Source: a virus
Strand: one strand, 5' to 3'
Length of the DNA: 64,000 bases
Virus record (IMG/VR): IMGVR_UViG_3300010370_000029
Coordinates: 23,474 to 87,473 of that record
The position numbers and the translations under genes are program-made. Below, one piece after another: positions 10,883 through 50,808 of the stretch (within the stretch, counting starts at the first letter, position 1; the number at the start of each line of letters is the position of its first letter). The notes under the pieces were generated by a model. That model saw nothing but the letters and a program-made list of their open reading frames with translations, made no database searches and was not told the origin of the DNA.

Positions 10883-10889
10883 TATTTAT
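10881..10889 (+). promoter_or_regulatory. putative late-type promoter motif
   Basis: GATATTTAT upstream of the TonB-dependent receptor. Confidence 0.45.
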
Positions 10890-10947
10890 TTATTCACCCC
10901 TAGCGTCGAGCCACCCACAGACGGGGCTCGGTTATAGAGACTCTCTT

Positions 10948-13900
10948 ATGAGAAAAATGTTGGAAATTCTTTTAGCAACTGCGATGTTGTCTACCTCCGC
11001 TTATGCGCAAATCACCAGCGGAATCCTTCGTGGTACGGTTAAAGATTTTACAGGTAGTACAATTGAAAATGCAAATGTTACTGTGGTCTTTGTTCCAACC
11101 AATCAACGAATTGTTACGAAAACGACAACAGAAGGTCGGTTCACATTATCCAACTTAAAACCAGGTGGTCCATATACTGTATCGGTGACCGCATTGGGGT
11201 TCCGTCCAAAGTTTACGGATAATCTCACAGTTCGTTTGGGTGAAGCAACAAGCACAGATATTGAAATGGAAAAAATTGTTGTAGTATTAAATCAAGTATC
11301 GGTTATTGCAGACGTAGCAGCACAGGCACGTAAAGATGGTGCGGTGGCACAACTCAATCAAGAGAAGTTGCAAGTGCTTCCCACCCTATCTCGTAGTCTC
11401 CAAGATATGACCCGTATGACCCCACAAGGTAACGGGGTTTCTTTTGCGGGTTCCAACTATCGGTATAACAACTTGACGATTGATGGAGCAGCATCGAATG
11501 ATGCGTTCGGATTCAGTCAATCATCAGGTCAATCCACCGCATCAGTTCCAACGGGAACACCTGGTTCTCTTTCACGTTCACAACCTATTTCGCTTGACGC
11601 CATCGAACAAGTATCTGTGGTCATCGCACCCTATGATGTGAAGATTGGTAATTTCACAGGTGGTAGCGTGAATGCAGTTACTCGTTCAGGTACCAACACC
11701 ACCGAAGGTTCCATCTACTCATTCGGTCGTGTTCCACAATTTATCGGTGATGGTATCTCTGGTAAAATGCCAACCACCTTTAATGAATATCAAGCAGGTG
11801 GTCGTATCGGTGGTCCTATTATCAAGGACAAGTTGTTCTACTTTTTGAATTTTGAAATTGCACGTAGAGCAGACCCTATCCTATTTGCACCTGGTAATCC
11901 AGGCGTGTTAGCCACGGAAGCAGTTGCACAACAAGTTCGTGATAGTCTGGTGTCATTCGCAGCACGCTCTGGTGTTCCAAACTTTGATGCAGGAACCTTT
12001 GGGGCATATGATATTGAAGCAAATAGTGAAAAGTATTTCGGTCGTGTGGATTGGAATATTGGGAACTCTATCTTGACGGTTCGTAGTAATCTTGTCAATG
12101 CAGTCGCAGGAAACTTGGAACGTGGACAAGCGCTCACCAAGTTAGCCTCACAAGACTTCGACCATTTCAGTAGAGCTACCAACACCGTTGCTGAATTGAA
12201 ATCACAACTTGGAACAGGAGTATCTAATAGTTTGTTGTTAGGATATTCACTTGTTCGTGACCACAGAAATCCATATGGTAATGTGTTCGCACCACAAATT
12301 GAAATCCAAGATATTCAGTTTGGTCAAATCAATGCAGGTAGTGACCGTGAAGGGGTGGTGTATGGCACCAAAGTTCGCACCTATGAAGTGACTAACAATC
12401 TCACATGGTCTGTGGGGAAGCATACCCTTACCGCTGGTACTCACAATGAGTTCTACAATATTCAATACACCTTCGTGAATGGATACGCCGGTCGTTGGCA
12501 ATACGCAAATCTCGCATCGTTCTTCGCAAATCGTCCTAATCGTATCAGAGCAACATTTGATTTGACGGATAATAGTTTAGATTATGTATTGAACAACCCA
12601 GGAGCAAACTTTAATATCACCGTTCCAAGTGTGTATATCCAAGACGAAGTATCTGTCACCGACAACTTCAAGGTGACCGCAGGGGTTCGTGCAGACTGGA
12701 ATATGATGGATACACCAGTTCAAGCAGATGCGTTTACGAACATCACTCTCACGAACGGCACCAAACCATATAGTACCATCACCAACGATTATAGTAGAAG
12801 TTTGTTGATTGGTCCTCGTTTCGGATTCAACTGGCAAACAGACAGAGTGACTTATCGTGGTGGGGTTGGATATTTTCAAGGAAGAATGCCGTTCGCATGG
12901 TATGCCTATCCATTCATCCACAACGGATTGATTGTAGGAAACATTGATGCAAGACCAACCAATGTGGTTCCGTTGATTGTGGACCCACTTCGTCAAAGTT
13001 CATTGAGTAGCACCACGACATATGAAATGAATGTGATCGGGAACAAGTATGTTCAACCACAGATGCGTAGAATGAACTTGGCAACAGACATCAAGTTACC
13101 ATTTGATGCATTACTTGTACTGGATTGGACATTCACCAAGACATTAAACGACATCGTATTCACGAACATCGGATTACCCGCACCCGCAGGTAATCTCGCA
13201 GGTGGTGACCGCAGACCAGTCTACACCTCAACCAGATTAACAACCACTACAACTAATCCATACACATCAGTATTCGCACTCAATAATACTGATAAGGGTT
13301 ACAGATACAACGTCACAGCAAATCTCAGTAAGAAGTGGGACCACCTTGATGTGATGGCAGCATATAGTTATGGGGAAGCAAAGGATTTGGCAAACGGTCA
13401 ACGCAACTCGTTCCAATCACACGTGGAATACAATCAATTGGTGAAGGGTAACCAATATGACCTCACGTGGTCTAACTTTGATATTCGTCATCGTTTCGTG
13501 GTGAATGGTAGTTGGAACTGGAAGAACACCACCGTATCAGCAGTCTATACAGGTTCATCAGGTTCACCATTCTCCTATGTGTATTCTGGTGATTTAAATG
13601 GTGACGGGTCAAGTCATAATGATTTGTTGTATGTTCCACGCAATATTGATGAAATCAAGTTGGTTCCATCTGCTCGTCCTACGGGTCAAGTAGATACCAG
13701 AACAGCACAACAAATCTGGGAAGATTTAGATAGATTCATCAGTAATGACCCATATCTGTCCTCACATCGTGGTGAATACACCAAGAGAAACGGTGCAAGA
13801 ACTCCGTGGAATCACCGAGCAGATGTTCGTATCATCCAATCAGTCAAGAATGTAGATATTACATTTGACATCACTAACTTCGGTAATCTGTTGAACAAGG

Positions 13901-14085
13901 ATTGGGGTAAGTATTATTTCGTTCCAAATCTTAATAATCAAAATGTCTATCCACTCCAATATCGTTCAGGTCGTGGTGTGAATAGCGTTCCAACATTTAG
14001 TTTCGACCCACTAAATACCACTTATCAGACAGATGATTTAATGTCTCGTTGGCAGATGCAAGTGGGGATTCGAGTTAACTTCTAA
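10948..14085 (+). CDS. TonB-dependent receptor, Oar-like (N-terminal carboxypeptidase-regulatory-like domain, plug, beta-barrel)
   Basis: Signal peptide ending AYA-Q; plug motifs NNLTIDG, PISLDAIE, GNFTGGSVNAVTRSGTN; YIQDE; C-terminal QVGIRVNF; 1045 aa. Confidence 0.9.
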   Translation: MRKMLEILLATAMLSTSAYAQITSGILRGTVKDFTGSTIENANVTVVFVPTNQRIVTKTTTEGRFTLSNLKPGGPYTVSVTALGFRPKFTDNLTVRLGEATSTDIEMEKIVVVLNQVSVIADVAAQARKDGAVAQLNQEKLQVLPTLSRSLQDMTRMTPQGNGVSFAGSNYRYNNLTIDGAASNDAFGFSQSSGQSTASVPTGTPGSLSRSQPISLDAIEQVSVVIAPYDVKIGNFTGGSVNAVTRSGTNTTEGSIYSFGRVPQFIGDGISGKMPTTFNEYQAGGRIGGPIIKDKLFYFLNFEIARRADPILFAPGNPGVLATEAVAQQVRDSLVSFAARSGVPNFDAGTFGAYDIEANSEKYFGRVDWNIGNSILTVRSNLVNAVAGNLERGQALTKLASQDFDHFSRATNTVAELKSQLGTGVSNSLLLGYSLVRDHRNPYGNVFAPQIEIQDIQFGQINAGSDREGVVYGTKVRTYEVTNNLTWSVGKHTLTAGTHNEFYNIQYTFVNGYAGRWQYANLASFFANRPNRIRATFDLTDNSLDYVLNNPGANFNITVPSVYIQDEVSVTDNFKVTAGVRADWNMMDTPVQADAFTNITLTNGTKPYSTITNDYSRSLLIGPRFGFNWQTDRVTYRGGVGYFQGRMPFAWYAYPFIHNGLIVGNIDARPTNVVPLIVDPLRQSSLSSTTTYEMNVIGNKYVQPQMRRMNLATDIKLPFDALLVLDWTFTKTLNDIVFTNIGLPAPAGNLAGGDRRPVYTSTRLTTTTTNPYTSVFALNNTDKGYRYNVTANLSKKWDHLDVMAAYSYGEAKDLANGQRNSFQSHVEYNQLVKGNQYDLTWSNFDIRHRFVVNGSWNWKNTTVSAVYTGSSGSPFSYVYSGDLNGDGSSHNDLLYVPRNIDEIKLVPSARPTGQVDTRTAQQIWEDLDRFISNDPYLSSHRGEYTKRNGARTPWNHRADVRIIQSVKNVDITFDITNFGNLLNKDWGKYYFVPNLNNQNVYPLQYRSGRGVNSVPTFSFDPLNTTYQTDDLMSRWQMQVGIRVNF

Positions 14086-14290: not shown

Positions 14291-14358
14291 ACTTTGGACT
14301 AAAGATTTTCCTCATCAGTGTTGTGGTCATGTACATTCTTGACAAGGTAATCAAATGA
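14287..14358 (+). CDS. small membrane peptide (23 aa)
   Basis: GAGG RBS; MNFGLKIFLISVVVMYILDKVIK; ATGA overlaps at both ends. Confidence 0.5.
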   Translation: MNFGLKIFLISVVVMYILDKVIK

Positions 14359-15461
14359 AAATCGTAAAGTCTAGTGATTGGCTTATTTCGGAAAACAAGG
14401 CTGGTGGTGAGAAGTTCTGGCGGTTGCATATCCTCCAAGATAACAAAGAAGGAGGATTTTATACGCAGACGGAATGGTTTCAGATTAGTAAGACAGGCCG
14501 TGAAACCAAACGACAGTTCTCTTCACCCTATTATGCCGAACCCACGAATGTCGGTCGGTCAAACGAGCGTAACTCTGAGCAGCAGGCAGAGTTTGAGTTT
14601 GACGCCGTAATCAAGAAGCAGAAGGACAAGGGATTCCGTGCGAAGGGTGAGCGAAAGAATGTTCGTCCGATGCCGATGCTTGCACATAAGTTTACGGACC
14701 ACAAGAAGAAGGTAAATTTTCCTGCATACATTCAGCCCAAGTTGAATGGTATGCGTATGTTGTTTGACGGAGAGAACGGATGGAGCCGTGGAAATAAGGA
14801 AGTGATTCCCGAAGTCATTCAGCACTTGAAGTTTGACACAGGTGGGTTTATACTTGATGGTGAGTTGATGCTTCCGAACAATCAGCTCCTTCAAGAGAGT
14901 ATGAAGGCAATCAAGAAGTATCGCCCAGAGTTGTCCTCACAACTTCTCTATCACGTTTATGATATCGTAGATGAGGAACTTCCGTATGTGAAGCGTCATC
15001 AGTTGATTCTGGACATTTGTGCGAATGCACCGAAGAATGTCAAGATTGTCAAGACTGTTCGGGCAGATGATGAATCACAGGTATCTCACCTTCATAATCT
15101 CTTTGTCCAAGACGGATACGAGGGAACGATGATTCGTGATGAGGAAATGAAGTATGAGATTGGCAAGCGTTCGTATTCACTACTTAAACTAAAGGACTTT
15201 ACAGATGCAGAGTATCGTATTGTTGATGTTGTTGACGGCGACGGTAGTGATGTCGGCCTCGCCATTTTTGAATTGGAGACTGATTCTGGTGCACGTTTCA
15301 ATTGCCGTCCAGAGGGTTCGCAGGAGAATCGTGCAGACCTATTCAAGAATCGTCGTCAGTTGGTTGGCAAGTATCTGACGGTTAGGTACTTTGAGTTGAG
15401 TAAGGACGGTATTCCGATTTTCCCCGTGGGTGTATCTATTCGTGAGTGGGGTGAATTCTAA
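14355..15461 (+). CDS. ATP-dependent DNA ligase
   Basis: PMLA, QPKLNG (motif I), LDGEL, YDIV, EGTMIR, LLKLK, OB domain ending P.FP. Confidence 0.92.
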   Translation: MKIVKSSDWLISENKAGGEKFWRLHILQDNKEGGFYTQTEWFQISKTGRETKRQFSSPYYAEPTNVGRSNERNSEQQAEFEFDAVIKKQKDKGFRAKGERKNVRPMPMLAHKFTDHKKKVNFPAYIQPKLNGMRMLFDGENGWSRGNKEVIPEVIQHLKFDTGGFILDGELMLPNNQLLQESMKAIKKYRPELSSQLLYHVYDIVDEELPYVKRHQLILDICANAPKNVKIVKTVRADDESQVSHLHNLFVQDGYEGTMIRDEEMKYEIGKRSYSLLKLKDFTDAEYRIVDVVDGDGSDVGLAIFELETDSGARFNCRPEGSQENRADLFKNRRQLVGKYLTVRYFELSKDGIPIFPVGVSIREWGEF

Positions 15462-17417: not shown

Positions 17418-17536
17418 GGCACCGCAGTTGGTCGGGACAACGATAGTATGACACGGGCGCTACCCGAGGTTACAAGCATACTATGCTAGCCAAGGACTAG
17501 GTGAGAGCCTAGATGGGTTCGAATCCCACGGTGCCA
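17418..17536 (+). ncRNA. non-canonical tRNA-like RNA (119 nt)
   Basis: Acceptor stem GGCACCG/CGGTGCC+A; D-like arm GTTG/CAAC; T-arm TGGG-TTCGAAT-CCCA; 8-bp ATAGTATG/CATACTAT arm with a 26-nt insert instead of an anticodon loop; extra GAGA-tetraloop hairpin. Confidence 0.75.
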
Positions 17537-17551
17537 CTTTACGAGGAAACT

Positions 17552-17917
17552 ATGGAAGATAAAAAGAATCCAAATGCGTTAACCTATGGGATATCCCCAA
17601 GTGCTCCCGCATCAATTAAACCAGTAGAAGTGGATAAGTGGGTCGGCAAAGTCGAACCCACTTTTAAGCATTATTATGAGGAACGATATAACGATTTGGT
17701 TAGACAATACGAAGAGTTGGTCAAGGATTACGAAATCAATAAGATGTGTTATGAAGCCTCGCTTGGGTTTGAACCAAATATAGGGCAGGTCTACCACTTG
17801 TATCGTAAGGGTGATGGTAGTACATTTCTATCAATCGTAGAACCACAATACGCATTTTGGGGTAATCATATTGGTAGTTATAGATTGAACGCTCAATATG
17901 CATGGGAACAAGTCTAA
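17552..17917 (+). CDS. DUF2452-like protein
   Basis: A..GFEP..GQVYHLY....G..FLSI..P motif; GAGG RBS. Confidence 0.65.
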   Translation: MEDKKNPNALTYGISPSAPASIKPVEVDKWVGKVEPTFKHYYEERYNDLVRQYEELVKDYEINKMCYEASLGFEPNIGQVYHLYRKGDGSTFLSIVEPQYAFWGNHIGSYRLNAQYAWEQV

Positions 17918-18501
17918 TGGCGTTACAAGGATACACCGTCGAGCACATCAGCTTTTCCGATACTGTCCGTTCTTTTTTACGGAAATGGCACTATTCGGAT
18001 TATGTCAATATTCAAGAAAAACACACTTTTGGATTATTTCGTGAGGGTGTGTTTTTACCTGAACTGGTTGGGATATGTATTTATACTAGGCCGGCAGGAC
18101 CAAGTGCCGCGCAGAAGTATTATCCACAAGACCCCGATAAATGTCTGGAACTCAGGCGATTGTGTTTAGTGGATGATACTCCAAAGAACGCTGAAAGTTT
18201 CTTTGTGAGTCGGACATTAAAGTGGTTACGAAAAAATACGGATTGGAAGTTTGTCGTAAGTTATGCTGACCCAGAGCAAGGACATAAAGGTATCATCTAT
18301 CGGGCAGCTAACTTTAAGTATGAAGGTATCACCGCGCCTGGGTCATCACTACTGGTAGATGGGAAACCTTTTCACATTAGAACCTTGACAATGTTGGACC
18401 GTCCGTATGGAGTAGAAATCAATCAACGATATAAAGCTGGCGACCCCGGCGTACAGATTATAAAGACGGAACCTAAGCATATTTACACATATCAACTCTA
18501 G
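17917..18501 (+). CDS. Mom-family (GNAT-fold) DNA base-modification enzyme
   Basis: F...WHYS, LELRRLC, PKNAESFFVS, VVSYADPEQGHKGIIYRAANF.Y.G. Confidence 0.8.
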   Translation: MALQGYTVEHISFSDTVRSFLRKWHYSDYVNIQEKHTFGLFREGVFLPELVGICIYTRPAGPSAAQKYYPQDPDKCLELRRLCLVDDTPKNAESFFVSRTLKWLRKNTDWKFVVSYADPEQGHKGIIYRAANFKYEGITAPGSSLLVDGKPFHIRTLTMLDRPYGVEINQRYKAGDPGVQIIKTEPKHIYTYQL

Positions 18502-18510
18502 GAGGAAAGT

Positions 18511-18867
18511 ATGGGCATGTTCGACACACTAAAAGTAGAAACAAAGATTCCAGGACATTCAGATGTTCCTCTTGGAGAATTTCAAACGAAGAGTCTGGAC
18601 TGTACACTAGATTATTATGTTATAACAAATAATGGTGAATTATACAAGGAAGTTTGGGACTATGCATGGGTAGATGACCCCAACTCAGCGTTTAATGGGT
18701 ATTTTGATAAAGTAGAAGGTAGTTATCGCCGGGAGTACTTGACAAACTTCCACGGAGATATTATATTTTATAATGGTGAAGTGGTGGGTGGGAAGTGGAG
18801 AGATTATACCGCTCGATTCACCGAAGGTAAATTAACAAGAGTTTGGTACGAAGATAAACAACTTTAA
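18511..18867 (+). CDS. conserved phage hypothetical protein (MGMFD...FQTK family)
   Basis: GGAGG RBS; MGMFD, EFQTKSL, A.FT.GKL. Confidence 0.65.
   Translation: MGMFDTLKVETKIPGHSDVPLGEFQTKSLDCTLDYYVITNNGELYKEVWDYAWVDDPNSAFNGYFDKVEGSYRREYLTNFHGDIIFYNGEVVGGKWRDYTARFTEGKLTRVWYEDKQL
18739..18767 (+). promoter_or_regulatory. sigma70-type promoter inside the upstream gene, probably driving the clamp operon
   Basis: TTGACA-17-TATATT. Confidence 0.6.
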
Positions 18868-18881
18868 AGAGGTTAAAGGTT

Positions 18882-19601
18882 ATGGAAAAGTCAAAGCTGG
18901 AAAGGTTCATTTCAAAGTATAACATCGGCGGAGCATGTGAGAGCGTCAAGTGTGTATCTAATGGTACAGAGATGACTGTTCGCTCTATTTCTGATGACAA
19001 GAATGTATTGGCTGAGGTGACCAGCCACGATATCGGATTCCCCGAGGGTGAGTTCAGTATCTATGAGACGAAGAAGCTTCGTTCGCTTCTTGGTGTACTT
19101 GGAGAGAAGCTGAAGGTCGCTGCAAATAGTTCGTCGAATAAGGTTATCGGATTGAATCTTTCTGACTCCGATACGAAGGTGACGTTCGTTCTGGCGGATG
19201 AGTCGGTCATTCCGAAGGTTCCCGACTTAAAGAAGCTCCCGCCGGTGGATATCGAAATTGTCCTTGATGACAAGTTTGTGAACACGTTCGCTCGTGCGAA
19301 GGGCGCTCTGTCTGAGGTGGATACGTTCACCGTGATGAGTGATGGTACGGATGCGACTGTTGTAATCGGCTACTCGACGTTGAATACGAACCGCGTCAAT
19401 ATCAAGACTACGACCAAGACGAATACGAAGATTGACCCGATTAGTTTCTCCGCTAACTATTTGAAGGAAGTGCTACTGTCGAACAAGGAAATCAAGGATG
19501 GTATCTTGAAGGTCAGTTCGAAGGGTATCGCTGTTGCGGAATTCGTGGGTGAGGCGTTCACCTCGAAGTATTTCCTCGTCCAAATTGACACGAAGGACTA
19601 A
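18882..19601 (+). CDS. sliding clamp, T4 gp45-like
   Basis: 239 aa; F.IYE...L, F.LAD.S.I, VSSKG....F, Y.LV; close to clamp-loader genes. Confidence 0.75.
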   Translation: MEKSKLERFISKYNIGGACESVKCVSNGTEMTVRSISDDKNVLAEVTSHDIGFPEGEFSIYETKKLRSLLGVLGEKLKVAANSSSNKVIGLNLSDSDTKVTFVLADESVIPKVPDLKKLPPVDIEIVLDDKFVNTFARAKGALSEVDTFTVMSDGTDATVVIGYSTLNTNRVNIKTTTKTNTKIDPISFSANYLKEVLLSNKEIKDGILKVSSKGIAVAEFVGEAFTSKYFLVQIDTKD

Positions 19602-20782
19602 TGGCCGGCTTCGACGATTTCTTTGATACACCCAAGTTTGATTTCGACAAGGAGAAACAGCTCTTTGTCGAAAACTTGGACATGCTTAAGAGTATGTCTG
19701 TTCAAGAACAAACCTTGTACAAGAAGTATAAGGAAGTAAATGGGTATTATCAGAATTCGTTTGATAAGGCTCGTATTGTCAAGGCGAAGATTTGGACGCC
19801 TACTGACCTGAACAATAAGGAACAGACTGTCAAGGAAATACAAGCCCTTCAGCCCCGTATCCGTCTGGTGATGTCAAAGACCACCGACGAAATGGATTGG
19901 AATATGATTCGGGTGTTCTCGCATACAATGGAGTTTGACCAGAATCCCGGTCGGTTTGTGCGATTCCTTGTTTATGATGAGGTAACGGGGAAGTATCTTG
20001 GTGCGACTTCTTTGGGGAGTGACGTTATCGCTATCGGCTGCCGTGATGAATGGATTGGATGGGATAAGGATACGAAGCTGAAGGGGAAGTTGAATAATTC
20101 CGCCATCGGTACTTGTATTATGGCTACCCAGCCGTTCGGATATAATTTCTTGGGCGGGAAGCTTGTTGCTTCGATGTTGACTACGAAGGTTGTTGCCGAT
20201 ACGTGGGAAAAGATGTACAACAACGTTTTGGCTGGACTCACCACGACTTCACTGTATGGGTCTGAGTCTATGTACAATTCTATTCCGTTCTGGAAGAAGT
20301 TGGGGTCAAGTACTGGTGCGATTGGTATCAAGCCCGATGATGATGTCTATGGCAAGTGGCATGACTATCTGAAGCAGAACAAGCCCGACGAGTATAAGGA
20401 ACGATTCGTCAAGGATGACCCATCGAAGGGACCGGTCACTGGTATTAAGCAACAAATCATTTCGATGATTTTCCGTGAAGTGGGAGTCGGTGCGAGTAAG
20501 TACAAGCACGGCTTTGAACGTGGTGTATATTACGCTCCCCTTTACGAGAATACCCGTGAATTCCTGCGTGGGGAAATTGAGAAGGATAAGCTCATTCCCT
20601 TGACAAAGCTGAAGGACGATGTAGATTCCGTATTGAATTGGTGGAAGCCGAAGGCTATCGCCCGATATGAGAAGTTACATGAAGAAGGTCGGACAAAGGA
20701 TGGTATTCTGTATTATACTAATATGATTGGAATTAGTTGGGATGAGGCAAAGCGTATCTATCTTCCAGAGGTCGGCAGATGA
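19601..20782 (+). CDS. DUF4338/DruA-like protein (Mom-related GNAT fold), putative DNA modification enzyme
   Basis: NPGR, GSD....RD.WIGW, QPFGYNFLGGKL, TTTSLYG, W..LG...G, HG..RGVY. Confidence 0.7.
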   Translation: MAGFDDFFDTPKFDFDKEKQLFVENLDMLKSMSVQEQTLYKKYKEVNGYYQNSFDKARIVKAKIWTPTDLNNKEQTVKEIQALQPRIRLVMSKTTDEMDWNMIRVFSHTMEFDQNPGRFVRFLVYDEVTGKYLGATSLGSDVIAIGCRDEWIGWDKDTKLKGKLNNSAIGTCIMATQPFGYNFLGGKLVASMLTTKVVADTWEKMYNNVLAGLTTTSLYGSESMYNSIPFWKKLGSSTGAIGIKPDDDVYGKWHDYLKQNKPDEYKERFVKDDPSKGPVTGIKQQIISMIFREVGVGASKYKHGFERGVYYAPLYENTREFLRGEIEKDKLIPLTKLKDDVDSVLNWWKPKAIARYEKLHEEGRTKDGILYYTNMIGISWDEAKRIYLPEVGR

Positions 20783-21888
20783 GTTTTTTTGAAACAACGG
20801 TTGACATATCAAAATGTAAAAAGGTATTGGTAATCCCCAATATTACTAATTCTGCGAATATCGAAAAGGACTCCTTCGTGGATGTTATCTATAATCATAT
20901 TCGAGCATTAGAAAAGCTTGGGGATTATTATTGGCACATCCTACTTCCAGAGCCCGTAGCAAAGCTCAATTTGGAAAACGTCAAGCAACATATCGTAGAC
21001 ATCTCTGGCGATATGATTCATATGCGGGTAACGTTTCCACGAAAGGCTATCACGCTAATTCAAGAGCTGGAGTATGATGTAGTCTATTCACATCTTCCTG
21101 ACTGGTTTATGGTCAAGCGATATACCGATAAACCAATCGTCGGATATGCACATTGGTGGGAAATGAAATCGTGTAATGCTGAAGATAGAAAGAATCGTCA
21201 GCGGAATATCGTGGCAGAATTGCTGGGTGTGATGGGGATGAAGGTGTGTTATCTGAATACCCAAGACCAAAAGAATCGGGTATTGGATGAGGCTCGGCAA
21301 TGGTTTAATGATGAAAAGGTTCAAGAGCTGGACAGAATTCTCCAAGTCTGGCATTTGGGTGTTCCCGAAGGAAAGATTATTTCCGCTCCTACTGAAAAGG
21401 AAAAGATTATTGTATTCAATCATCGTGCCGCTGCATACAAGGGATATCCGCAATTTATTGAGCTAATAAAAGAGTATCGTGAGTCCAGACAAGACTTTGT
21501 GGTATGGGTTCCACAGCTGGAAGGAAAGCCGGAAGAATCGTGGATTGACAATACCAAAGTCCCGAAGCATGAGTACTATACCCGACTCCAGCGTTGCTCC
21601 GTAGGAATCCAAATGCGCCAATCAAACTATGGATGGAGCGTGGCAGCCACGGATTGTATGATGAATGGTACTGCGGTTATTTTCCAAGAGTCTGACTGCT
21701 ATCACGAAATTGACCCCGATGGTCTATTCTTCAAGTTTAAAAAGGATTTATTTGCTACGCTGGATAAGTTTTTGGACGATACGACATTTCGTCACGAACA
21801 AGGTGTACGAAGTATCCAACGTACAAAGGAATTGCAAGATAAAGAAAATAATATGTTATTATTGTTAAACGATAATTTAAGTACTTGA
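20779..21888 (+). CDS. GT-B glycosyltransferase (possible DNA base glycosyltransferase)
   Basis: YDVVYSHLP, FNHR...YKG, GWSVAATDCMMNG; ATGA overlap with the DUF4338 gene. Confidence 0.75.
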   Translation: MSFFETTVDISKCKKVLVIPNITNSANIEKDSFVDVIYNHIRALEKLGDYYWHILLPEPVAKLNLENVKQHIVDISGDMIHMRVTFPRKAITLIQELEYDVVYSHLPDWFMVKRYTDKPIVGYAHWWEMKSCNAEDRKNRQRNIVAELLGVMGMKVCYLNTQDQKNRVLDEARQWFNDEKVQELDRILQVWHLGVPEGKIISAPTEKEKIIVFNHRAAAYKGYPQFIELIKEYRESRQDFVVWVPQLEGKPEESWIDNTKVPKHEYYTRLQRCSVGIQMRQSNYGWSVAATDCMMNGTAVIFQESDCYHEIDPDGLFFKFKKDLFATLDKFLDDTTFRHEQGVRSIQRTKELQDKENNMLLLLNDNLST

Positions 21889-21913
21889 CAATAGCCAACA
21901 ATTGTATTAGATT
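21885..21913 (+). promoter_or_regulatory. sigma70-type promoter
   Basis: TTGACA-17-TAGATT. Confidence 0.6.
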
Positions 21914-21992
21914 TAATATGTTACAAAGATTACTCTTTTTGTGCCACAGAGCAATCTTCTAAATCAACGGCACTAAAACAAAAGGAGAAGTT

Positions 21993-23660
21993 ATGGCTGG
22001 GCTGACCCTCGTATCATCAGGAGCAAACGTCAAGTCGTGGACGTTTGATAAAATTTCTAAGGAGTATAGTACTACTCTCGTAGACACGCCAAAGTATCAG
22101 CGACCGGATGTGTTCGGCTTTGTACGGAACGGCAGCGGTAGTAATTGGCAGCGTAATCTCATCCGTTCTATTTTGATGGGCAATCCCATCCCTCAGCTCC
22201 ACTTTCGCTACGTATTCTCAAAGGGGCCAAATGGTCTAGAGTGGAAGTATGAGATTGTGGACGGAGGACATCGCACACGTACTGTATATTACTTTCTAAA
22301 CAATTGCATTAAAACTCCAATTGACTGTACGCTTACCGATGTTGACGGGAACCAGTACAACATTGGTGCTATGCATCTTTCACAGATTATACAGAAGTAT
22401 CCTGTGCTAGAGGATTACATCTATAATCTTTCTCTTAGCGTTGTAGAGTATGAAAATCTCACCGATGATGATGCAGAAACACTTTTTCTTACTCTTAATG
22501 ATTTGAACAAGATGTCTCCCGCTGACAAGCGGAACGCTATTAATAATATTATTGCGGATACGAACCGTAATCTTGGTGCGGTTGACTCCCCTAACGCTTT
22601 TTCGATGTTCACCAGCCGTTCATTCATTAAGAACGATTGGAAGGCTGACTACACCAGCTTGGATGCAGTCAGCCGAGAGTCGGATGAAATTGTATCGTGG
22701 GCGATGTACTATCTATACAGCGGTGGTATATTTGCAAAAGACTCCAGCGGAAAGCCGCGGTTCGCGGGTATGGACGCCCAATCAGTTCTCGACAAGATGT
22801 ATCGTGACGAGTATCTTATGAGGGAGTTGGCGGTACCGGGGTCTAAGATGGAAAAGAATCTGCGGTCACTACTGTCAATTGTTAATAATATTGTCGTTAA
22901 GAATCCGCGTCTTGATATTTTTAAAAAGGGCGGAAAGTGGTTCGCTGGTCCTCTAAAGAAGCTTATTATGCTAGTCGCTGAGATGCACAATGTAAACGGT
23001 ACTTTTAACTTTAGTAAAGTTAAAATTAATACCGACGACTTCTTTACCTCTTTCAATCGAGCGACCAGCGAACTGAAGAACGACAAGAACGTAAAGCCAC
23101 ACCTGCCATACCAGTCGTATATGCTGGTAAACAACAAGGTTCACGTAAATAGCGTTCAGCCGGATAATGTTGGTGATACAATATATCCGTTCCATAAAGT
23201 GTTTACGGGAGGCGCTCGACTTGACGATATGCTGTACATCTATTATCATTACGTCACCAAGGGTTATATGAATTTTGGAGTTACGAAATTGGATAAGCGT
23301 CGAGACTTTAATAAGGATATCGTAGATACTCTACTCACGGAACAGAAGAATTGCTGCCGGTTTTGCTCAAAGTTACTCACGGATGGTAATTACGCGGTAG
23401 ACCACATTGCTCCGCATTCTTTTGGTGGACCTACAATTCTGGAAAACAGCCAGATTCTCTGTTCTTCTTGTAACGGTCAGAAGTCGAATGGCATGACACT
23501 CCAAGATGTGGTACATCTCTGTGAGAGAATGAACGTAGACGTTCAACTTAAGGAAGTTGTAGTTGGACTGGCTCACGCAGTTATTACCTCTGGCGCAACT
23601 GACCGACTCTCGGAAGGTGATATCCGTACAGTAATTAAGCTGGTATTTGGCAAACAATAA
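21993..23660 (+). CDS. DUF262 (ParB/Srx-like) + HNH nuclease, GmrSD-like
   Basis: PKYQR, LIRSIL.G.PIP, IVDGGHR, F..LN; C-terminal CRFC..DHI.P...GG....NSQILCSSCN. Confidence 0.8.
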   Translation: MAGLTLVSSGANVKSWTFDKISKEYSTTLVDTPKYQRPDVFGFVRNGSGSNWQRNLIRSILMGNPIPQLHFRYVFSKGPNGLEWKYEIVDGGHRTRTVYYFLNNCIKTPIDCTLTDVDGNQYNIGAMHLSQIIQKYPVLEDYIYNLSLSVVEYENLTDDDAETLFLTLNDLNKMSPADKRNAINNIIADTNRNLGAVDSPNAFSMFTSRSFIKNDWKADYTSLDAVSRESDEIVSWAMYYLYSGGIFAKDSSGKPRFAGMDAQSVLDKMYRDEYLMRELAVPGSKMEKNLRSLLSIVNNIVVKNPRLDIFKKGGKWFAGPLKKLIMLVAEMHNVNGTFNFSKVKINTDDFFTSFNRATSELKNDKNVKPHLPYQSYMLVNNKVHVNSVQPDNVGDTIYPFHKVFTGGARLDDMLYIYYHYVTKGYMNFGVTKLDKRRDFNKDIVDTLLTEQKNCCRFCSKLLTDGNYAVDHIAPHSFGGPTILENSQILCSSCNGQKSNGMTLQDVVHLCERMNVDVQLKEVVVGLAHAVITSGATDRLSEGDIRTVIKLVFGKQ

Positions 23661-23674
23661 AATAGGAATATTCT

Positions 23675-24589
23675 ATGACAGAAAACACGTTGTGGATTGA
23701 GAAGTATCGCCCGAACACATTGGAAAACTATATTGGGAACGATGCCCTAAAGGCGAAGTTGGCTGATTATATTTCCAAGCAGGATATCCCGCATCTTTTA
23801 TTCTATGGAACTGCGGGTACGGGTAAGACCACCGCTGCCAAGATTTTATTAAAGAATATTGAGTGTGATTCGCTCAGTATCAACGCTTCTGATGAGCGTG
23901 GTATTGATGTGATTCGGGAAAAGATTAAGAACTTTGCGTCCACATCGGGGTTTGCTCCGTTGAAGATTGTATTCTTGGATGAGGCCGATTATCTGACACC
24001 AGACGCTCAGGCCGCACTTCGTAATATGATGGAAGTGTTCAGTCACCGTACAAGGTTTGTGCTGACTTGTAATTATGTGGAACGTATTATTCCTGCGATT
24101 ATCAGTCGGTGTCAGACCTCGGCATTGATTCCACCGTCGAAGAAAGATGTGGCGGTACATCTCACTCACATCTTGACGAAGGAGCAGGTGACATTCGAGA
24201 AACAGGCGATTGCTACCTTGGTTAATGCTTATTATCCTGATATTCGTCGGATTATTGGTACCGCTCAGTTACAGACCCGTGATGGGAAGCTGGTCATCAA
24301 TGTTCACGAAGTTATCGCTGGAGATAGTAAGTTGAAGATTCTGGATACTTTGACCAGTAATCAACCATCCGCTAGTAAGATGAATGAGATTCGTCAGATT
24401 GTGACTGACGCTGGGATTCGTGACTTTACTGAACTGTATCGGCTGCTTTATGATAAGGTTCAAGAGTATGCGTCCGACCGAATCCCACAGACGATTCTCG
24501 CTCTCGCAGAAGGTCAATATCGTGACGCATTTGTAGTAGATAAAGAAATTAATTTTATGGCAACGATGTATAACATTTTAATGTACTAA
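23675..24589 (+). CDS. clamp loader ATPase subunit (gp44/RFC-like)
   Basis: WIEKYRP, GTAGTGKT, NASDERG, LDEAD, SRC. Confidence 0.93.
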   Translation: MTENTLWIEKYRPNTLENYIGNDALKAKLADYISKQDIPHLLFYGTAGTGKTTAAKILLKNIECDSLSINASDERGIDVIREKIKNFASTSGFAPLKIVFLDEADYLTPDAQAALRNMMEVFSHRTRFVLTCNYVERIIPAIISRCQTSALIPPSKKDVAVHLTHILTKEQVTFEKQAIATLVNAYYPDIRRIIGTAQLQTRDGKLVINVHEVIAGDSKLKILDTLTSNQPSASKMNEIRQIVTDAGIRDFTELYRLLYDKVQEYASDRIPQTILALAEGQYRDAFVVDKEINFMATMYNILMY

Positions 24590-24598
24590 GAGGAAATT

Positions 24599-24928
24599 AT
24601 GACCAGTAAGTTTATCCCGCCCGACCCGCGCCAGATGCGTAATCAGCAGGCACCTGACCTTTCATTGGCTACCGATATTGTCTGTGAGAATTGCGGTAAT
24701 CTGACTTTCCAAGAAGTTCTCTTGATGAAGAAGGTATCCGCTCTCGTCTCACCAAACGGTAAGGAAGGAATTGTTCCTATTCCGACATTTTCTTGCGTAG
24801 CATGTGGATATGTGAACAAGATGTTCCGTCCGGTGACTCCGGCCGGCGCAGAAGAGCCGACCGAAGCGACTCGTACAGAAGCGGCTGAACCAGAGCCCAC
24901 TCGTCCGAAGCTCGTATTAGAGGACTAA
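24599..24928 (+). CDS. zinc-ribbon hypothetical protein
   Basis: CENCG...CVACG. Confidence 0.7.
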   Translation: MTSKFIPPDPRQMRNQQAPDLSLATDIVCENCGNLTFQEVLLMKKVSALVSPNGKEGIVPIPTFSCVACGYVNKMFRPVTPAGAEEPTEATRTEAAEPEPTRPKLVLED

Positions 24929-25773
24929 TGGAAACAACCTTCGTTGAGACTTCCCGTGTCACGGTGCGAGAAATATCGAAATCCGTGGCACGAGATTTCA
25001 TTCAGACTCATCACTATACACATAAGTTCAGTTCCACCCGATATGCCCTTGGGGTATTTTATGTGGAAGATGCCGAACATATATTCTTTGCTGGTGCGAA
25101 CGAGAAGCTCATTGGGTGTATGACCTATGGGCATCCCGTCAGCAATAGAACGGTGGATAGTATTGTGGATGGATTGGAACTTGACGAAGTGCTAGAATTG
25201 ACCCGCTTGGTGTGCTTGGACGGATATGGAAAGAATCTGGAAAGTTTTGTGATTTCCAAATCGTTTGAGTGGATGAAGAAGCATGACCCCAAGGTGAAAG
25301 TCTTGGTCAGTTATGCTGACCCCGAACAAGCACATACCGGCGGGATTTATCGGGCAACGAATTGGCTGTATCAAGGATGTGGGTATTCCAAGTTGATGCC
25401 AGATTTCAGTATCCGAATCAATGAAGATGACCTCTGGACGCATAGCCGTACCGTTGGAGCCCGTTGGGGTAATAAGTCGGTGGATAATCTGGCAAAGACT
25501 ATTGGTCAAACCTTCTATAGAAAAGAAGAAACGGCAAAACATCGGTATATCTATTTCCTTTGTGGGAAGAAGGAACGGAAACGGATGATAAAGGAATTAA
25601 AGATTCCCGTGTTCGGATATTCAGAAATCAAGCCGTATACCCAACTGATTCAGAAGGTGCATGTAAAGGATGGAGTAGTTGAACGTATTGAAATCCTGCA
25701 AGGGGTTGACAATGGCTGGTCAAACAAACAGATTGTAATGCAGGAGGATGAAGATGGCGAAGACTCTATTTGA
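24928..25773 (+). CDS. Mom-family DNA base-modification enzyme (second copy)
   Basis: FI..HHY, LELTRL, KNLESFVIS, LVSYADPEQAHTGGIYRATNWLYQG, KHRYIY. Confidence 0.8.
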   Translation: METTFVETSRVTVREISKSVARDFIQTHHYTHKFSSTRYALGVFYVEDAEHIFFAGANEKLIGCMTYGHPVSNRTVDSIVDGLELDEVLELTRLVCLDGYGKNLESFVISKSFEWMKKHDPKVKVLVSYADPEQAHTGGIYRATNWLYQGCGYSKLMPDFSIRINEDDLWTHSRTVGARWGNKSVDNLAKTIGQTFYRKEETAKHRYIYFLCGKKERKRMIKELKIPVFGYSEIKPYTQLIQKVHVKDGVVERIEILQGVDNGWSNKQIVMQEDEDGEDSI

Positions 25774-26185
25774 CCACATTAATGCAATTTATCAAGACCA
25801 GAAGAAGAACTATTTCGCTGGATTGGACGATGGGGAGAAACGGACCTATAGTAACTATATGGTCAACCGATTCCTCAGTATGAACATTCATCAGCTTCCG
25901 CTGGTCAATGAGATACAAAAATACAATTTACCATCCGATGTTCACTATTTATTCTTTGCGACCACGATTCCTCGCGGGAAGCAATATAACAAATATGTAA
26001 AGTCAAAGAACGAAACCAAGTATGAAGGTTGGTTAGTCACACTGGTTTCGAAGCATTTTACTGTGTCTGAAAGTGAAGCGATGATGTATTTGGATATTTA
26101 TTATGGGGAACATAAGGACGCCCTTCGGAGTTTATGTGAGGGGTATGGAATCGATAACAAAACACTAAAGAAAGCTAAGCTATGA
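25754..26185 (+). CDS. clamp loader small subunit (gp62-like)
   Basis: LFD.INAI, Y..YMVNRFLS, VNE.Q, YL.I motifs. Confidence 0.7.
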   Translation: MAKTLFDHINAIYQDQKKNYFAGLDDGEKRTYSNYMVNRFLSMNIHQLPLVNEIQKYNLPSDVHYLFFATTIPRGKQYNKYVKSKNETKYEGWLVTLVSKHFTVSESEAMMYLDIYYGEHKDALRSLCEGYGIDNKTLKKAKL

Positions 26186-26700
26186 CAGTAGCAACAGCAG
26201 AGAGAATGGTTACTATGGTTAAATTGACTTGGGCAGAATACTTCCGAAAAATCGCACATACAGTTAAACTGAAGTCGAAGGATAAGACTACCCAGATTGG
26301 TGCGGTTATTGTCGGTTCCAATAATGAAATCCGTTCTACGGGATACAATTCATTTCCACGTGGGATTGAAGATTTCCGTGAAGAACGGCAGGAACGTCCA
26401 GAGAAATATTATTGGATGGAACATGCTGAGCGAAATGCAATTATCAACGCCGCTCGTATTGGTGTATCAACCGACCGTTGTATTTTATTCCTAACGTGTG
26501 ACATTCCATGCGTTGATTGCACTCGTGCGATTATCAATTCTGGAATCAAGATTATATTCTGTGAACGTGGTGAAGGGGCAAAGGGTGACCACTGGAACGA
26601 ACATACCCAACGTAGTATACAGATGTTACAAGAAGCAAAGTGCACCGTTCATTATTATGGTGAAATAAAACCTTTTATTAATATTGGTGAACTACAATGA
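26182..26700 (+). CDS. dCMP deaminase
   Basis: S.D...QIGAVIV, GYN, HAERNAI, PCVDC. Confidence 0.92.
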   Translation: MTVATAERMVTMVKLTWAEYFRKIAHTVKLKSKDKTTQIGAVIVGSNNEIRSTGYNSFPRGIEDFREERQERPEKYYWMEHAERNAIINAARIGVSTDRCILFLTCDIPCVDCTRAIINSGIKIIFCERGEGAKGDHWNEHTQRSIQMLQEAKCTVHYYGEIKPFINIGELQ

Positions 26701-50798: not shown

Positions 50799-50808
50799 GA
50801 GAGGTTGT

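What the first reader, a model, noticed from the sequence alone, without database searches (positions are those of the whole stretch)
17917..26185. Three Mom-fold enzymes and a glycosyltransferase interleaved with the clamp and clamp-loader genes: replisome-coupled DNA hypermodification system
Seen: the order is Mom-like 1, hypothetical, gp45 clamp, DUF4338/DruA-like, GT-B, DUF262-HNH, gp44, zinc ribbon, Mom-like 2, gp62. The DUF4338 gene is translationally coupled to the clamp (TAATG) and to the glycosyltransferase (ATGA), and Mom-like 2 overlaps gp62. The two Mom copies share SYADPEQ.H.G.IY.A.N but differ in length and sequence. Known: Mom modifies adenine N6 post-replicatively, and GT-B enzymes glycosylate phage bases (T4 AGT/BGT). 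Inference: several acyl or aminoacyl transferases and a glycosyltransferase may act at the clamp-loaded fork, giving more than one, possibly stacked and undescribed, base modification. No hydroxymethylase or TET gene is present in this window, so the glycosyltransferase acceptor could be a group installed by the DUF4338 enzyme.
Basis: partly seen in the sequence, partly recalled or inferred. Interest (0 to 1): 0.75.

Follow-up and report, generated by a model that had tools for sequence, protein, structure and literature searches.

The report
Mom, DruA-like and glycosyltransferase genes in phage replisome operon
An uncultured large T4-like lake phage keeps two Mom-type DNA-adenine-modifying enzymes, a third Mom-shaped enzyme of the unexplained DruA family and a phage-specific sugar transferase wedged between its sliding-clamp and clamp-loader genes. 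This set recurs in many relatives and most likely disguises the phage DNA in a way not yet described.

Summary
The gene order, the TAATG/ATGA overlaps, the Mom2/gp62 overlap and the shared SYADPEQ motif are all present.

- **Mom1 and Mom2** are true homologues of Mu Mom (PDB 8bv8). They keep its conserved catalytic residues.
- **The DUF4338 protein** is a DruA-family GNAT. Its best solved structural match is Mom (Z 9.7), statistically tied with other GNATs.
- **The glycosyltransferase (GT)** is a GT4-like GT-B enzyme from a small family that is almost entirely phage-borne.

New findings here:
- DruA-GT is a conserved coupled pair. It is directly adjacent in 35 of 59 relatives and in 24 of 27 loci of a lineage where the GT is only about 37% identical.
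- The pair always lies inside the polymerase/clamp/clamp-loader cluster, though at three different positions.
- In 6 of 6 cyanomyophage isolates inspected, DruA alone sits between gp44 and gp62.
- All three near-complete relatives carry 2 Mom + 1 DruA + 1 GT.
- A GmrSD-like DUF262-HNH nuclease joins the pair in three separate arrangements.
- Two contigs binned to bacterial genomes (the longer in clear bacterial context) carry the GT beside a ParB_N-DruA fusion.

This points to DNA as the target. The chemistry, the GT acceptor and any physical coupling to the replisome remain unshown. This scan has already noted the same module on at least 10 other genomes. Rated a new variant of a known kind.

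The parts
17552..17917 (+). DUF2452-like gene. Its stop overlaps the Mom1 start (TAATG). Present and absent together with Mom1 in relatives.
   Evidence: PF10504 E 1.3e-8. Synteny. Junction. The longer ORF from 17513 starts inside the tRNA-like element.
17902..18501 (+). Mom1: short, very divergent Mom-family GNAT. Predicted aminoacyl-tRNA-dependent DNA base modifier. Alternative start at 17917.
   Evidence: PF25680 123 bits and phrog_1384 1e-46. phmmer to Mu Mom 8bv8 E 1.8e-10 with the Mu R111, S124, D149 and Y159 equivalents kept. Long branch in the Mom tree.
18511..18867 (+). 118-aa protein of unknown function.
   Evidence: phrog_1615 E 1.5e-6. Conserved only in the closest relatives.
18882..19601 (+). 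Probable gp45-type sliding clamp.
   Evidence: No Pfam or PHROG hit. hhalign E 5.5e-4 to HTVC008M gp45. ESM-Atlas gp45-slide_C cluster at 0.95. PCNA_C E 0.0025 in the L024 homologue. Lies next to gp44 in relatives.
19601..20782 (+). DruA/DUF4338-family GNAT-fold protein. Overlaps the clamp stop (TAATG) and the GT start (ATGA).
   Evidence: PF14236 117 bits. PADLOC DruA1 1e-26. AF2 pLDDT 88.8. Best PDB match is Mu Mom: Foldseek prob 1.0, VIA Z 9.7 over 173 aa. 3,490 homologues in metagenomes.
20779..21888 (+). GT4-like GT-B glycosyltransferase and partner of DruA. Carries a conserved, disordered N-terminal M-x-F-[FW]-[ED] peptide.
   Evidence: AF2 pLDDT 86. Z 24-26 to PimB', PglA, BshA and MshA. 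Only 163 cluster representatives among 1.84e9 proteins. Two hits in 185,579 species genomes. N-terminal peptide.
21993..23660 (+). GmrSD-like DUF262 (ParB-like) + HNH nuclease with its own promoter-like site. A sporadic cassette member.
   Evidence: GmrSD_N 39.7 bits and HNH 33.5 bits. At this spot only in the window and L007. Homologues lie between DruA and GT in other relatives and after the GT in L121.
23675..24589 (+). gp44 clamp-loader ATPase.
   Evidence: phrog_168 3e-80 plus AAA and DNA_pol3_delta2 domains.
24599..24928 (+). Zinc-ribbon protein. A lineage-wide occupant of the gp44-gp62 interval.
   Evidence: Two CxxC pairs in the translation. Only weak Zn-ribbon Pfam hits. Conserved in most relatives.
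24928..25773 (+). Mom2: full-length Mom-family enzyme with an extra acidic C-terminal tail. Overlaps gp62.
   Evidence: PF25680 160 bits and phrog_1384 2e-52. 8bv8 E 9.6e-8. Invariant H29, Y30, R93, S106, D131 and Y141 in alignment A3.
25748..26185 (+). gp62 clamp-loader small subunit.
   Evidence: PF16790 48 bits and phrog_225 2e-24.
26182..26700 (+). dCMP deaminase. Its start overlaps the gp62 stop (ATGA). Indicates an ordinary dTMP supply.
   Evidence: PF00383 E 1.5e-18. ThyX at window 50782-51477.

Best explanation
The region is the clamp/clamp-loader operon of an uncultured ~190-kb T4-like phage. An accessory DNA-modification set has lodged in it.

Module 1 is the two Mom paralogues. Like Mu Mom, each most likely takes an amino acid from a charged tRNA and puts it on a base of double-stranded phage DNA. 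In Mu the target is adenine N6 and the product is carbamoylmethyl-adenine. Two paralogues suggest two specificities, for amino acid, base or sequence context.

Module 2 is the translationally coupled pair of DruA-like GNAT and GT4-like glycosyltransferase. The pair is an evolutionary unit and most likely also acts on DNA. The GNAT would install or alter a group and the GT would add a sugar from an NDP-sugar, in an order not yet known.

The GmrSD-like DUF262-HNH nuclease, present in only some relatives, would tell modified from unmodified DNA (host or rival phage).

Expression from the replisome operon gives early, stoichiometric supply of these enzymes. Riding on the clamp is possible but unproven.

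Shown: the family and fold assignments, the conserved catalytic residues of the Moms, and the conserved linkage.

Inferred: DNA as the target of DruA and the GT, the order of steps, the donors, and an anti-restriction role.
For: Moms:
- Pfam and PHROG hits. Direct homology to solved Mu Mom with the catalytic residues kept.
- Published mechanism: Gly-tRNA(Gly) donor, dsDNA substrate, post-replicative (PMC13219725).

DruA:
- GNAT fold. Mom is the top solved match and has the longest aligned span.
- Literature calls DUF4338 a GNAT (PMC10853773). A cyanophage homologue was judged Mom-like by its authors (PMC12801897).

Linkage:
- DruA lies directly upstream of the GT in 35 of 59 informative loci of this lineage, with a gap of +1 or -4 nt.
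- The same holds in 24 of 27 loci of a lineage where the GT is ~37% and DruA 27% identical, all with a 4-nt overlap.
- The cassette Mom-Mom-DruA-GT is contiguous and abuts PolB in another sub-lineage.
- All three genomes that are at least 95% complete hold 2 Mom + 1 DruA + 1 GT.

DNA as target:
- GmrSD_N-HNH genes join the pair in three independent arrangements.
- Two contigs binned to bacterial genomes carry the GT beside a ParB_N(GHRR)-DruA fusion. The 70-kb one has clear bacterial neighbours; the 9.8-kb one was not examined further.
- A GT4-like phage enzyme that glycosylates DNA exists (HY126, PDB 9ir0; PMC13326640).

The GT family is nearly phage-only.
Against: - No experiment or read-level signal shows any modified base in this phage.
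- The DruA and Mom profiles show no sequence homology. Mom's structural lead over ordinary GNATs is under 1 Z unit.
- The GT fold matches small-molecule, lipid and polysaccharide GT4 enzymes as well as, or better than, DNA glycosyltransferases.
- The phage carries about ten other GTs, a dTDP-sugar/aminosugar pathway and a collagen-like protein. Protein or glycan glycosylation is therefore active in this genome.
- No hydroxylated base precursor pathway was found to give the GT an acceptor.
- DruA occurs without the GT in isolates. The GT occurs without an adjacent DruA in 24 of 59 loci.
- Position in the replisome cluster could reflect common descent plus known insertion-prone intervals.
- The Mu-essential R151 aligns with Glu in both Moms.
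Confidence: 0.55

Rival explanations
1. Only the two Moms modify DNA. The DruA-GT pair works on something else: a protein (phage clamp or loader, or a host factor) or a small molecule. This would resemble GT4 + GNAT pairs such as MshA/MshD in mycothiol synthesis. Its place in the operon reflects timing of expression only.
For: - The top GT structural matches are MshA, BshA, PimA/PimB' and PglA, which use small-molecule or lipid acceptors.
- DruA keeps a near-canonical GNAT Q-x-x-G-x-N motif after beta-4, as read from alignment A1.
- No acceptor-making pathway for a base was found.
- The genome is rich in other glycosylation genes.
Against: - DUF262/ParB-type DNA-binding or nuclease domains are linked or fused to the pair repeatedly.
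- The pair forms a contiguous cassette with two Moms.
- Mom is DruA's best structural match.
Confidence: 0.25
2. The phage DruA-like protein is a counter-defence decoy or dominant-negative subunit against host Druantia type I. The GT is an unrelated neighbour.
For: - It matches the DruA1 defence model over nearly its full length.
- Phages often carry homologues of defence proteins (Phold preprint).
Against: - No DruB-E genes are nearby.
- There are about 65 invariant positions across 30 diverse phage sequences, including GNAT core motifs, which argues for catalysis.
- The 4-nt overlap with the GT is conserved across lineages.
- Homologues occur in phages of Synechococcus and Pelagibacter. Druantia I was not shown in those hosts and was not tested here.
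Confidence: 0.07
3. There is no functional unit. The genes are independent morons that collected in insertion-tolerant gaps of the T4-like replication cluster.
For: - The gp45-gp44-gp62 intervals hold variable small ORFs in cyanophages.
- The DUF262-HNH gene has its own promoter-like site and is sporadic.
- The slot after the GT holds an unrelated 439-aa gene in close relatives.
Against: - The DruA-GT overlap persists at 27-37% identity, across three different operon positions, and in a bacterial context with the opposite orientation.
- The four genes co-occur in all near-complete genomes.
Confidence: 0.1

Closest known systems
Bacteriophage Mu Mom (Pfam PF25680; PDB 8bv8; Silva et al., Nat Commun 2026, PMC13219725)
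   Same: - Mom1 and Mom2 are sequence homologues with the conserved catalytic residues and the insertion before the last strand.
- The DruA-like protein has the same GNAT fold, with Mom as its best solved match.
- A phage-encoded, presumably post-replicative, anti-restriction role is expected.
   Different: - Mu has a single late-expressed mom gene under Com/C control.
- Here there are two divergent paralogues plus DruA and a GT, all inside the replication operon.
- The Mu-essential R151 is not conserved.
- The donor amino acid, target base and product are unknown.
DruA (DUF4338, PF14236) of the type I Druantia defence system
   Same: The same protein family by Pfam and PADLOC models, of similar length. 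DruA's function is unknown. Its GNAT fold has been noted in the literature (PMC10853773).
   Different: - No DruB-E partners are present.
- The gene is phage-encoded, coupled to a GT, and sits among clamp and clamp-loader genes.
- Bacterial relatives found here are ParB_N fusions next to the GT, not Druantia operons.
Phage DNA glycosyltransferases (T4 alpha/beta-glucosyltransferases; HY126/RB69 5-hydroxycytosine arabinosyltransferases, PDB 9ir0, PMC13326640)
   Same: A GT-B fold enzyme encoded by a T4-like phage among DNA-metabolism genes. 9ir0 is among the structural matches (rank 18, E 2.9e-9).
   Different: - No sequence relation to these enzymes.
- No thymidylate-synthase-type enzyme that would make a hydroxylated pyrimidine acceptor, in the own contig or in a complete relative.
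- The match is no better than to any other GT4 enzyme.
GmrSD / type IV modification-dependent restriction enzymes
   Same: An N-terminal DUF262 (GmrSD_N) domain plus a His-Me-finger nuclease. Associated with sugar-modified DNA biology.
   Different: - The C-terminal nuclease is a classical HNH (PF01844), not DUF1524.
- It is encoded by the phage itself next to a GT.
- Its specificity is unknown.
Cyanomyophage 'T4-like gene cluster 1216' putative cytoplasmic protein (e.g. S-SSM7 gp173, S-SM2 gp144; S-SCSM2R ORF152, annotated as mom)
   Same: Homologous DruA-like genes (27-31% identity) lodged in the clamp-loader operon, directly before gp62.
   Different: These isolates have no partner GT and no true Mom nearby. 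The window's lineage moved the gene to the gp45/gp44 interval and coupled it to a GT.

Membership tests
Mom family (PF25680) | Score above the Pfam gathering threshold, and direct homology to Mu Mom | tested here: met
   Mom1 scores 123.2 bits and Mom2 159.9 bits against a cut-off of 27.1. phmmer to 8bv8 gives E 1.8e-10 and 9.6e-8.
Mom family (PF25680) | Residues shown essential and conserved in Mu Mom: R111 and S124, plus H58, Y59, D149 and Y159 | tested here: met
   The HMMER alignment to 8bv8 was mapped with a +9 offset (the S124A mutation is visible at chain position 115). The equivalents H29, Y30, R93, S106, D131 and Y141 are invariant in 14 Mom copies.
Mom family (PF25680) | Mu-essential R151 | tested here: inconclusive
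   It aligns with Glu in the ADPEQ motif of both copies. The position varies among relatives. The alignment could shift, and the invariant His136 lies nearby.
Mom family (PF25680) | HTH-like insertion before the last beta-strand | tested here: inconclusive
   Both copies have the segment with the invariant H172, R174 and K204-H205-x-Y207. No structure was predicted for them.
Mom family (PF25680) | Aminoacyl-tRNA-dependent modification of adenine in dsDNA | not testable with these tools
   Needs expression followed by nucleoside LC-MS.
DruA / DUF4338 (PF14236) | Score above the gathering threshold and near full-length match to DruA models | tested here: met
   116.6 bits against a cut-off of 27. 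PADLOC PDLC00002 E 1.1e-26, covering residues 81-353 against positions 88-369 of 407.
DruA / DUF4338 (PF14236) | GNAT fold | tested here: met
   AF2 model with pLDDT 88.8. VIA Z 9.7 to Mom and about 9 to many other GNATs, over residues 78-340.
Druantia type I system | DruA encoded together with DruB-DruE (a DUF1998 helicase) | tested here: not met
   The neighbours are the clamp, GT, nuclease and clamp loader. This is a member of the protein family, not of the defence system.
GT-B / GT4 glycosyltransferases | Two-Rossmann GT-B fold | tested here: met
   Z 24-26 with 320-335 residues aligned to PimB', PglA, BshA and MshA.
GT-B / GT4 glycosyltransferases | Pfam GT4/GT1 score above the gathering threshold | tested here: not met
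   Glyco_transf_4 scores 23.6 against 28.5. Glycos_transf_1 scores 19.0 against 26.4. This is a divergent family and is filed by fold only.
GT-B / GT4 glycosyltransferases | Donor-binding Arg/Lys pair and acidic residues of the C-terminal domain | tested here: inconclusive
   H215, R216, K221, D292 and S305 are invariant and E304 nearly invariant in 15 sequences. Their assignment to GT4 motifs is by inspection only.
Phage DNA glycosyltransferases | Specific relation to a GT with a proven DNA acceptor, and presence of a hydroxylated base pathway | tested here: inconclusive
   9ir0 ranks 18th, no better than other GT4 enzymes. No PF00303 or PF12851 match in the own contig or in complete relative G001 (the PF12851 model matched none of the 14 control genomes, so that negative is weak). 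ThyX only.
GmrSD-type type IV restriction enzymes | DUF262 N-domain plus a C-terminal His-Me nuclease | tested here: met
   GmrSD_N scores 39.7 bits against 33.2. HNH scores 33.5 against 21.4. The nuclease is classical HNH rather than DUF1524.
T4-type clamp and clamp loader (gp45/gp44/gp62) | Family matches for all three proteins | tested here: inconclusive
   gp44 and gp62 are clear. gp45 rests on weak evidence only; a PDB profile search found nothing.

The most novel reading that the evidence does not exclude
The DruA-like GNAT is a second kind of DNA base acyl- or aminoacyl-transferase. Its product, or the carboxamide/hydroxyl group left by a Mom paralogue, is then glycosylated by the dedicated GT. 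The result would be a sugar-on-amino-acid-on-base hypermodification with no known precedent. The enzymes would reach nascent DNA through short terminal aromatic peptides that bind the sliding clamp. The same chemistry would explain DruA in Druantia type I as a DNA-marking subunit. It would also explain the bacterial ParB-DruA + GT pairs as a modification system.
Probability: 0.15. Interest if true: 0.9.

Novelty: new variant of a known kind. Interest (0 to 1): 0.62.

Why it matters
Mom was shown only in 2026 to be a tRNA-dependent DNA aminoacyltransferase. What its many homologues and multi-paralogue sets do is open. DruA is a widespread defence-system protein of unknown function.

Here DruA has thousands of phage homologues and a fixed partner GT. 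It also recurs with a ParB/DUF262 nuclease partner and sits at a fixed address in the replisome operon. That gives a concrete, cheap experiment for both questions: co-express the genes and run nucleoside LC-MS.

If the pair modifies DNA, abundant lake and ocean T4-like phages carry an undescribed DNA modification. That would affect restriction, sequencing and virome analysis.

Tried and rejected
- Megablast of the region and tblastn of the GT against 50,697 phage records found nothing. The nearest isolate by PolB is Microcystis phage Mel-JY01 at 43%. It did not appear among the DruA or GT matches in that collection.
- hhalign of the DruA profile against the Mom profile gave no signal.
- PDB sequence searches for DruA, the GT and the clamp gave no hits.
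- NCBIfam gave nothing for DruA, the GT or the clamp.
- The GT is not a paralogue of the two large downstream GTs.
- A T4 late-promoter motif scan and a terminator scan gave nothing above chance.
- Rfam and default ARAGORN found no RNA gene in the region.
- The covariance model of the tRNA-like element found it only in the closest relatives. It is therefore not a general partner of the module.
- A clamp-binding C-terminal tag on the modification enzymes, a lead from earlier scan notes, is not present in this genome. Only PolB and ligase share EW..F-COOH.
- An N-terminal PIP-like reading of DruA (MAGFDDFF) is not conserved outside the closest relatives.

Full report
**What is in the window**

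The window is part of an 87,473-bp IMG/VR viral contig that CheckV rates 46% complete. It encodes a T4-type replication set: gp32, a UvsX-like RecA, a 5'-3' exonuclease, a DnaB-like helicase, a class II ribonucleotide reductase, PolB, an ATP-dependent ligase, a dCMP deaminase and ThyX. It also encodes a TonB-dependent-receptor-like barrel, about ten glycosyltransferases, a dTDP-sugar/aminosugar pathway and a collagen-like protein. No isolate is close. The best PolB match is Microcystis phage Mel-JY01 at 43%, and megablast of the region finds nothing.

**Checking the observation**

All ten genes are on the + strand at the stated places.

| Gene | Coordinates | Evidence |
|---|---|---|
| Mom1 | 17902/17917-18501 | PF25680, 123 bits |
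| Mom2 | 24928-25773 | PF25680, 160 bits |
| DruA | 19601-20782 | PF14236, 117 bits |
| GT | 20779-21888 | sub-threshold GT4/GT1 hits only |
| DUF262-HNH | 21993-23660 | GmrSD_N + HNH |
| gp44 | 23675-24589 | phrog_168, 3e-80 |
| gp62 | 25748-26185 | PF16790, 48 bits |

The clamp (18882-19601) has no Pfam or PHROG hit. It rests on four weak lines: hhalign E 5.5e-4 to a pelagiphage gp45, an ESM-Atlas neighbour cluster carrying gp45-slide_C at 0.95, a weak PCNA_C hit in a homologue, and its size and position.

- TAATG at clamp/DruA.
- ATGA at DruA/GT.
- TAATG at Zn-ribbon/Mom2.
- A 26-nt Mom2/gp62 overlap.
- ATGA at gp62/dCMP deaminase.

The two Moms share VSYADPEQ.H.G.IYRA.N and are 34% identical over 152 aa.

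**The two Moms**

Both match the sequence of solved Mu Mom (8bv8; E 1.8e-10 and 9.6e-8). Silva et al. (Nat Commun 2026, PMC13219725) showed three things about Mom:
- It transfers glycine from Gly-tRNA(Gly) to N6 of adenine in dsDNA, post-replicatively. An on-base rearrangement then gives carbamoylmethyl-adenine.
- R111 and S124 are essential and conserved. H58, Y59, D149, R151 and Y159 also matter.
- An HTH-like insertion is required.

I mapped the HMMER alignment using the visible S124A substitution as an anchor. The equivalents of H58, Y59, R111, S124, D149 and Y159 are invariant in 14 Mom copies from this phage group. R151 aligns with Glu. The insertion segment is present.

In a tree, Mom1 sits on a very long branch. 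The tandem alpha/beta Moms of other sub-lineages arose by a duplication separate from the Mom1/Mom2 split. Different sub-lineages therefore keep two or more paralogues by different routes.

**The DruA-like protein**

An AF2 model from a 30-sequence alignment has pLDDT 88.8. Foldseek against the PDB ranks Mu Mom first (prob 1.0, E 1e-3), followed by GNAT acetyltransferases. VIA-align gives Z 9.7 over 173 residues for Mom, against Z about 9 over 134-149 residues for ordinary GNATs. Mom therefore has the longest aligned span, but the lead is under 1 Z unit. Profile-profile comparison with the Mom alignment finds nothing.

The literature already calls DUF4338 a GNAT (PMC10853773). It has also noticed DruA-like proteins in cyanophages (Phold preprint). 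One cyanophage homologue was annotated 'mom' on structural grounds (PMC12801897). So 'three Mom-fold enzymes' is fair if read as two Moms plus one GNAT nearest to Mom.

**The glycosyltransferase**

The AF2 model (pLDDT 86) is a GT4-like GT-B enzyme with Z 24-26 to PimB', PglA, BshA and MshA. The DNA arabinosyltransferase of phage HY126 (9ir0; PMC13326640) appears at rank 18, no better than the rest. Viral matches include Arthrobacter phage GTs and the Bacillus phage SP-15 GT. The fold therefore does not tell the acceptor.

The family is small and nearly phage-only:
- 163 cluster representatives among 1.84 billion proteins.
- No hit in 50,697 phage isolate records.
- Two hits in 185,579 species genomes.

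**Synteny, the main new result**

Eighty related loci were fetched with the GT and forty more with a distant homologue. Genes were placed by tblastn and by HMMs built from my alignments.

*Adjacency.* Among loci with enough upstream sequence:
- In the window's lineage, DruA lies directly before the GT in 35 of 59 loci, with a gap of +1 or -4 nt.
- In a lineage where the GT is about 37% and DruA 27% identical to the window's, DruA lies directly before the GT in 24 of 27 loci, all with a 4-nt overlap.

*Position.* The pair occupies three different slots, always inside the replication cluster:
- clamp | DruA-GT | gp44 (the window and close kin).
- gp44 | DruA-GT | gp62 (the distant lineage).
- thioredoxin-Mom-Mom-DruA-GT | PolB (a third group).

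*Genome content.* All three relatives that are at least 95% complete hold exactly two Moms, one DruA and one GT. In one of them the Moms lie 19 kb from the pair.

*Isolates.* In 6 of 6 cyanomyophage isolates inspected, the DruA-like gene sits between gp44 and gp62 without a GT. In two pelagiphages it lies a few kb before gp45.

DruA is thus a long-standing resident of the clamp-loader operon of aquatic T4-like phages. The GT is its partner in uncultured lineages.

**The nuclease and the bacterial fusion**

The DUF262-HNH gene is at this exact spot only in the window and one near-identical contig. Close relatives carry an unrelated 439-aa gene there. Even so, GmrSD_N-HNH homologues lie between DruA and the GT in another sub-lineage, and directly after the GT in the distant lineage.

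The only two hits among the species genomes are lake MAG contigs, one of 70 kb and one of 9.8 kb. There a GT that is 43% identical faces a 734-aa ParB_N(GHRR)-DruA fusion whose DruA part is 39% identical to the window's. Only the 70-kb contig was examined further. Its neighbours are bacterial genes: a resolvase, an S41 peptidase, a MiaB-like enzyme and a sigma-54 activator.

ParB_N and DUF262 belong to the same DNA-binding/nuclease superfamily (my own background knowledge, not tested here). The repeated link and the fusion are the best evidence here that DruA and the GT work on DNA.

**What is not shown**

- No modified base has been seen.
- No thymidylate-synthase-type hydroxymethylase or hydroxylase and no TET/JBP match was found in the contig or in a complete relative. 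The TET/JBP model matched none of the 14 control genomes either, so that negative is weak. Other relatives carry an ordinary-scoring ThyA. The GT acceptor is therefore open.
- Replisome coupling rests on gene position. PolB ends in EWFSF and the ligase in EWGEF, a plausible clamp tag, but Mom1, Mom2, DruA and the GT do not end that way.
- The GT does carry an N-terminal M-x-F-[FW]-[ED] peptide. It is essentially invariant in about 70 loci, disordered in the model and missing from the bacterial homologues. DruA starts MAGFDDFFD or MKFWDT. These peptides are leads for clamp binding, not evidence.
- Earlier notes of this scan report the same module on at least 10 other genomes, with similar readings. 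I treated these as leads only.

**Verdict**

The best reading (confidence 0.55) is an accessory DNA-modification set made of two Mom-type aminoacyl-tRNA-dependent base modifiers plus a coupled DruA-GT pair, with an optional modification-aware nuclease. It is expressed from the replisome operon.

The rivals are a non-DNA target for DruA-GT (0.25), chance neighbours (0.10) and an anti-Druantia decoy (0.07).

It is a new variant of a known kind, namely phage DNA hypermodification clusters of the Mom type. It offers a clear bench test that would also address what DruA does.

Noticed in passing
window 17418-17537 (+): A tRNA-like RNA with a 7-bp acceptor stem, D arm, long class-II variable arm and TTCGAAT T-loop, but a 30-nt insert in the anticodon loop. 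ARAGORN calls it 'tRNA-Ser(act)' only in intron mode. It is 100% identical in relatives whose flanking proteins are 87-93% identical. Compared with a 76%-identical copy, 7 of 29 pairs show compensatory changes. It occurs only in the closest relatives. It lies ~365 nt before Mom1, and Mom enzymes use charged tRNA.
   Followed up: partly
window 17552-17917: A DUF2452-like gene overlaps the Mom1 start (TAATG). It is present and absent together with Mom1 in relatives, and both are missing in L015. It may be a Mom1 partner. The ORF listed from 17513 starts inside the tRNA-like element, so ATG 17552 is the likelier start.
   Followed up: partly
L134:5986-9329 and L133:4282-7619: Lake MAG contigs (one binned to Arenimonas, one to an uncultured bacterium; only L134's neighbours were checked and are bacterial). 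A GT homologue (43% identical) is convergent with a 734-aa ParB_N(GHRR)-DruA fusion. A resolvase lies nearby in L134. This may be a bacterial DNA-marking or defence pair.
   Followed up: partly
window 8357-10882 and 14355-15461: PolB ends in ...QEWFSF and the ATP-dependent ligase in ...REWGEF. The shared C-terminal E-W-x-x-F tag is a plausible clamp-binding peptide of this phage.
   Followed up: no
window 10879-14085: A complete 1068-aa TonB-dependent-receptor-like outer-membrane barrel (CarboxypepD_reg + OMP_b-brl_4) lies between PolB and ligase. This is unusual phage cargo and hints at a Gram-negative, perhaps Bacteroidota, host.
   Followed up: no
window 30959-51477 and contig upstream (L005:4335-9183): About ten further glycosyltransferases, an FkbM methyltransferase, a HAD-nucleotidyltransferase fusion, a DegT aminotransferase, a GNAT, RmlA/B/D-like enzymes and 2OG-Fe(II) oxygenases. 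A collagen-like protein lies at 54157-55680 (-). Together this is a large glycan or protein-glycosylation capacity that could also supply the NDP-sugar for the DruA-linked GT.
   Followed up: no
L008:9117-10436: In close relatives the slot after the GT holds a 439-aa protein with no Pfam or PADLOC match, in place of the DUF262-HNH nuclease.
   Followed up: partly
L037, L041, L058, L060 (first 2 kb): Relatives of the clamp-DruA-GT-gp44 type carry arrays of 6-10 ordinary tRNA genes (including Gly, Ser and Thr) about 4 kb upstream of the clamp.
   Followed up: no
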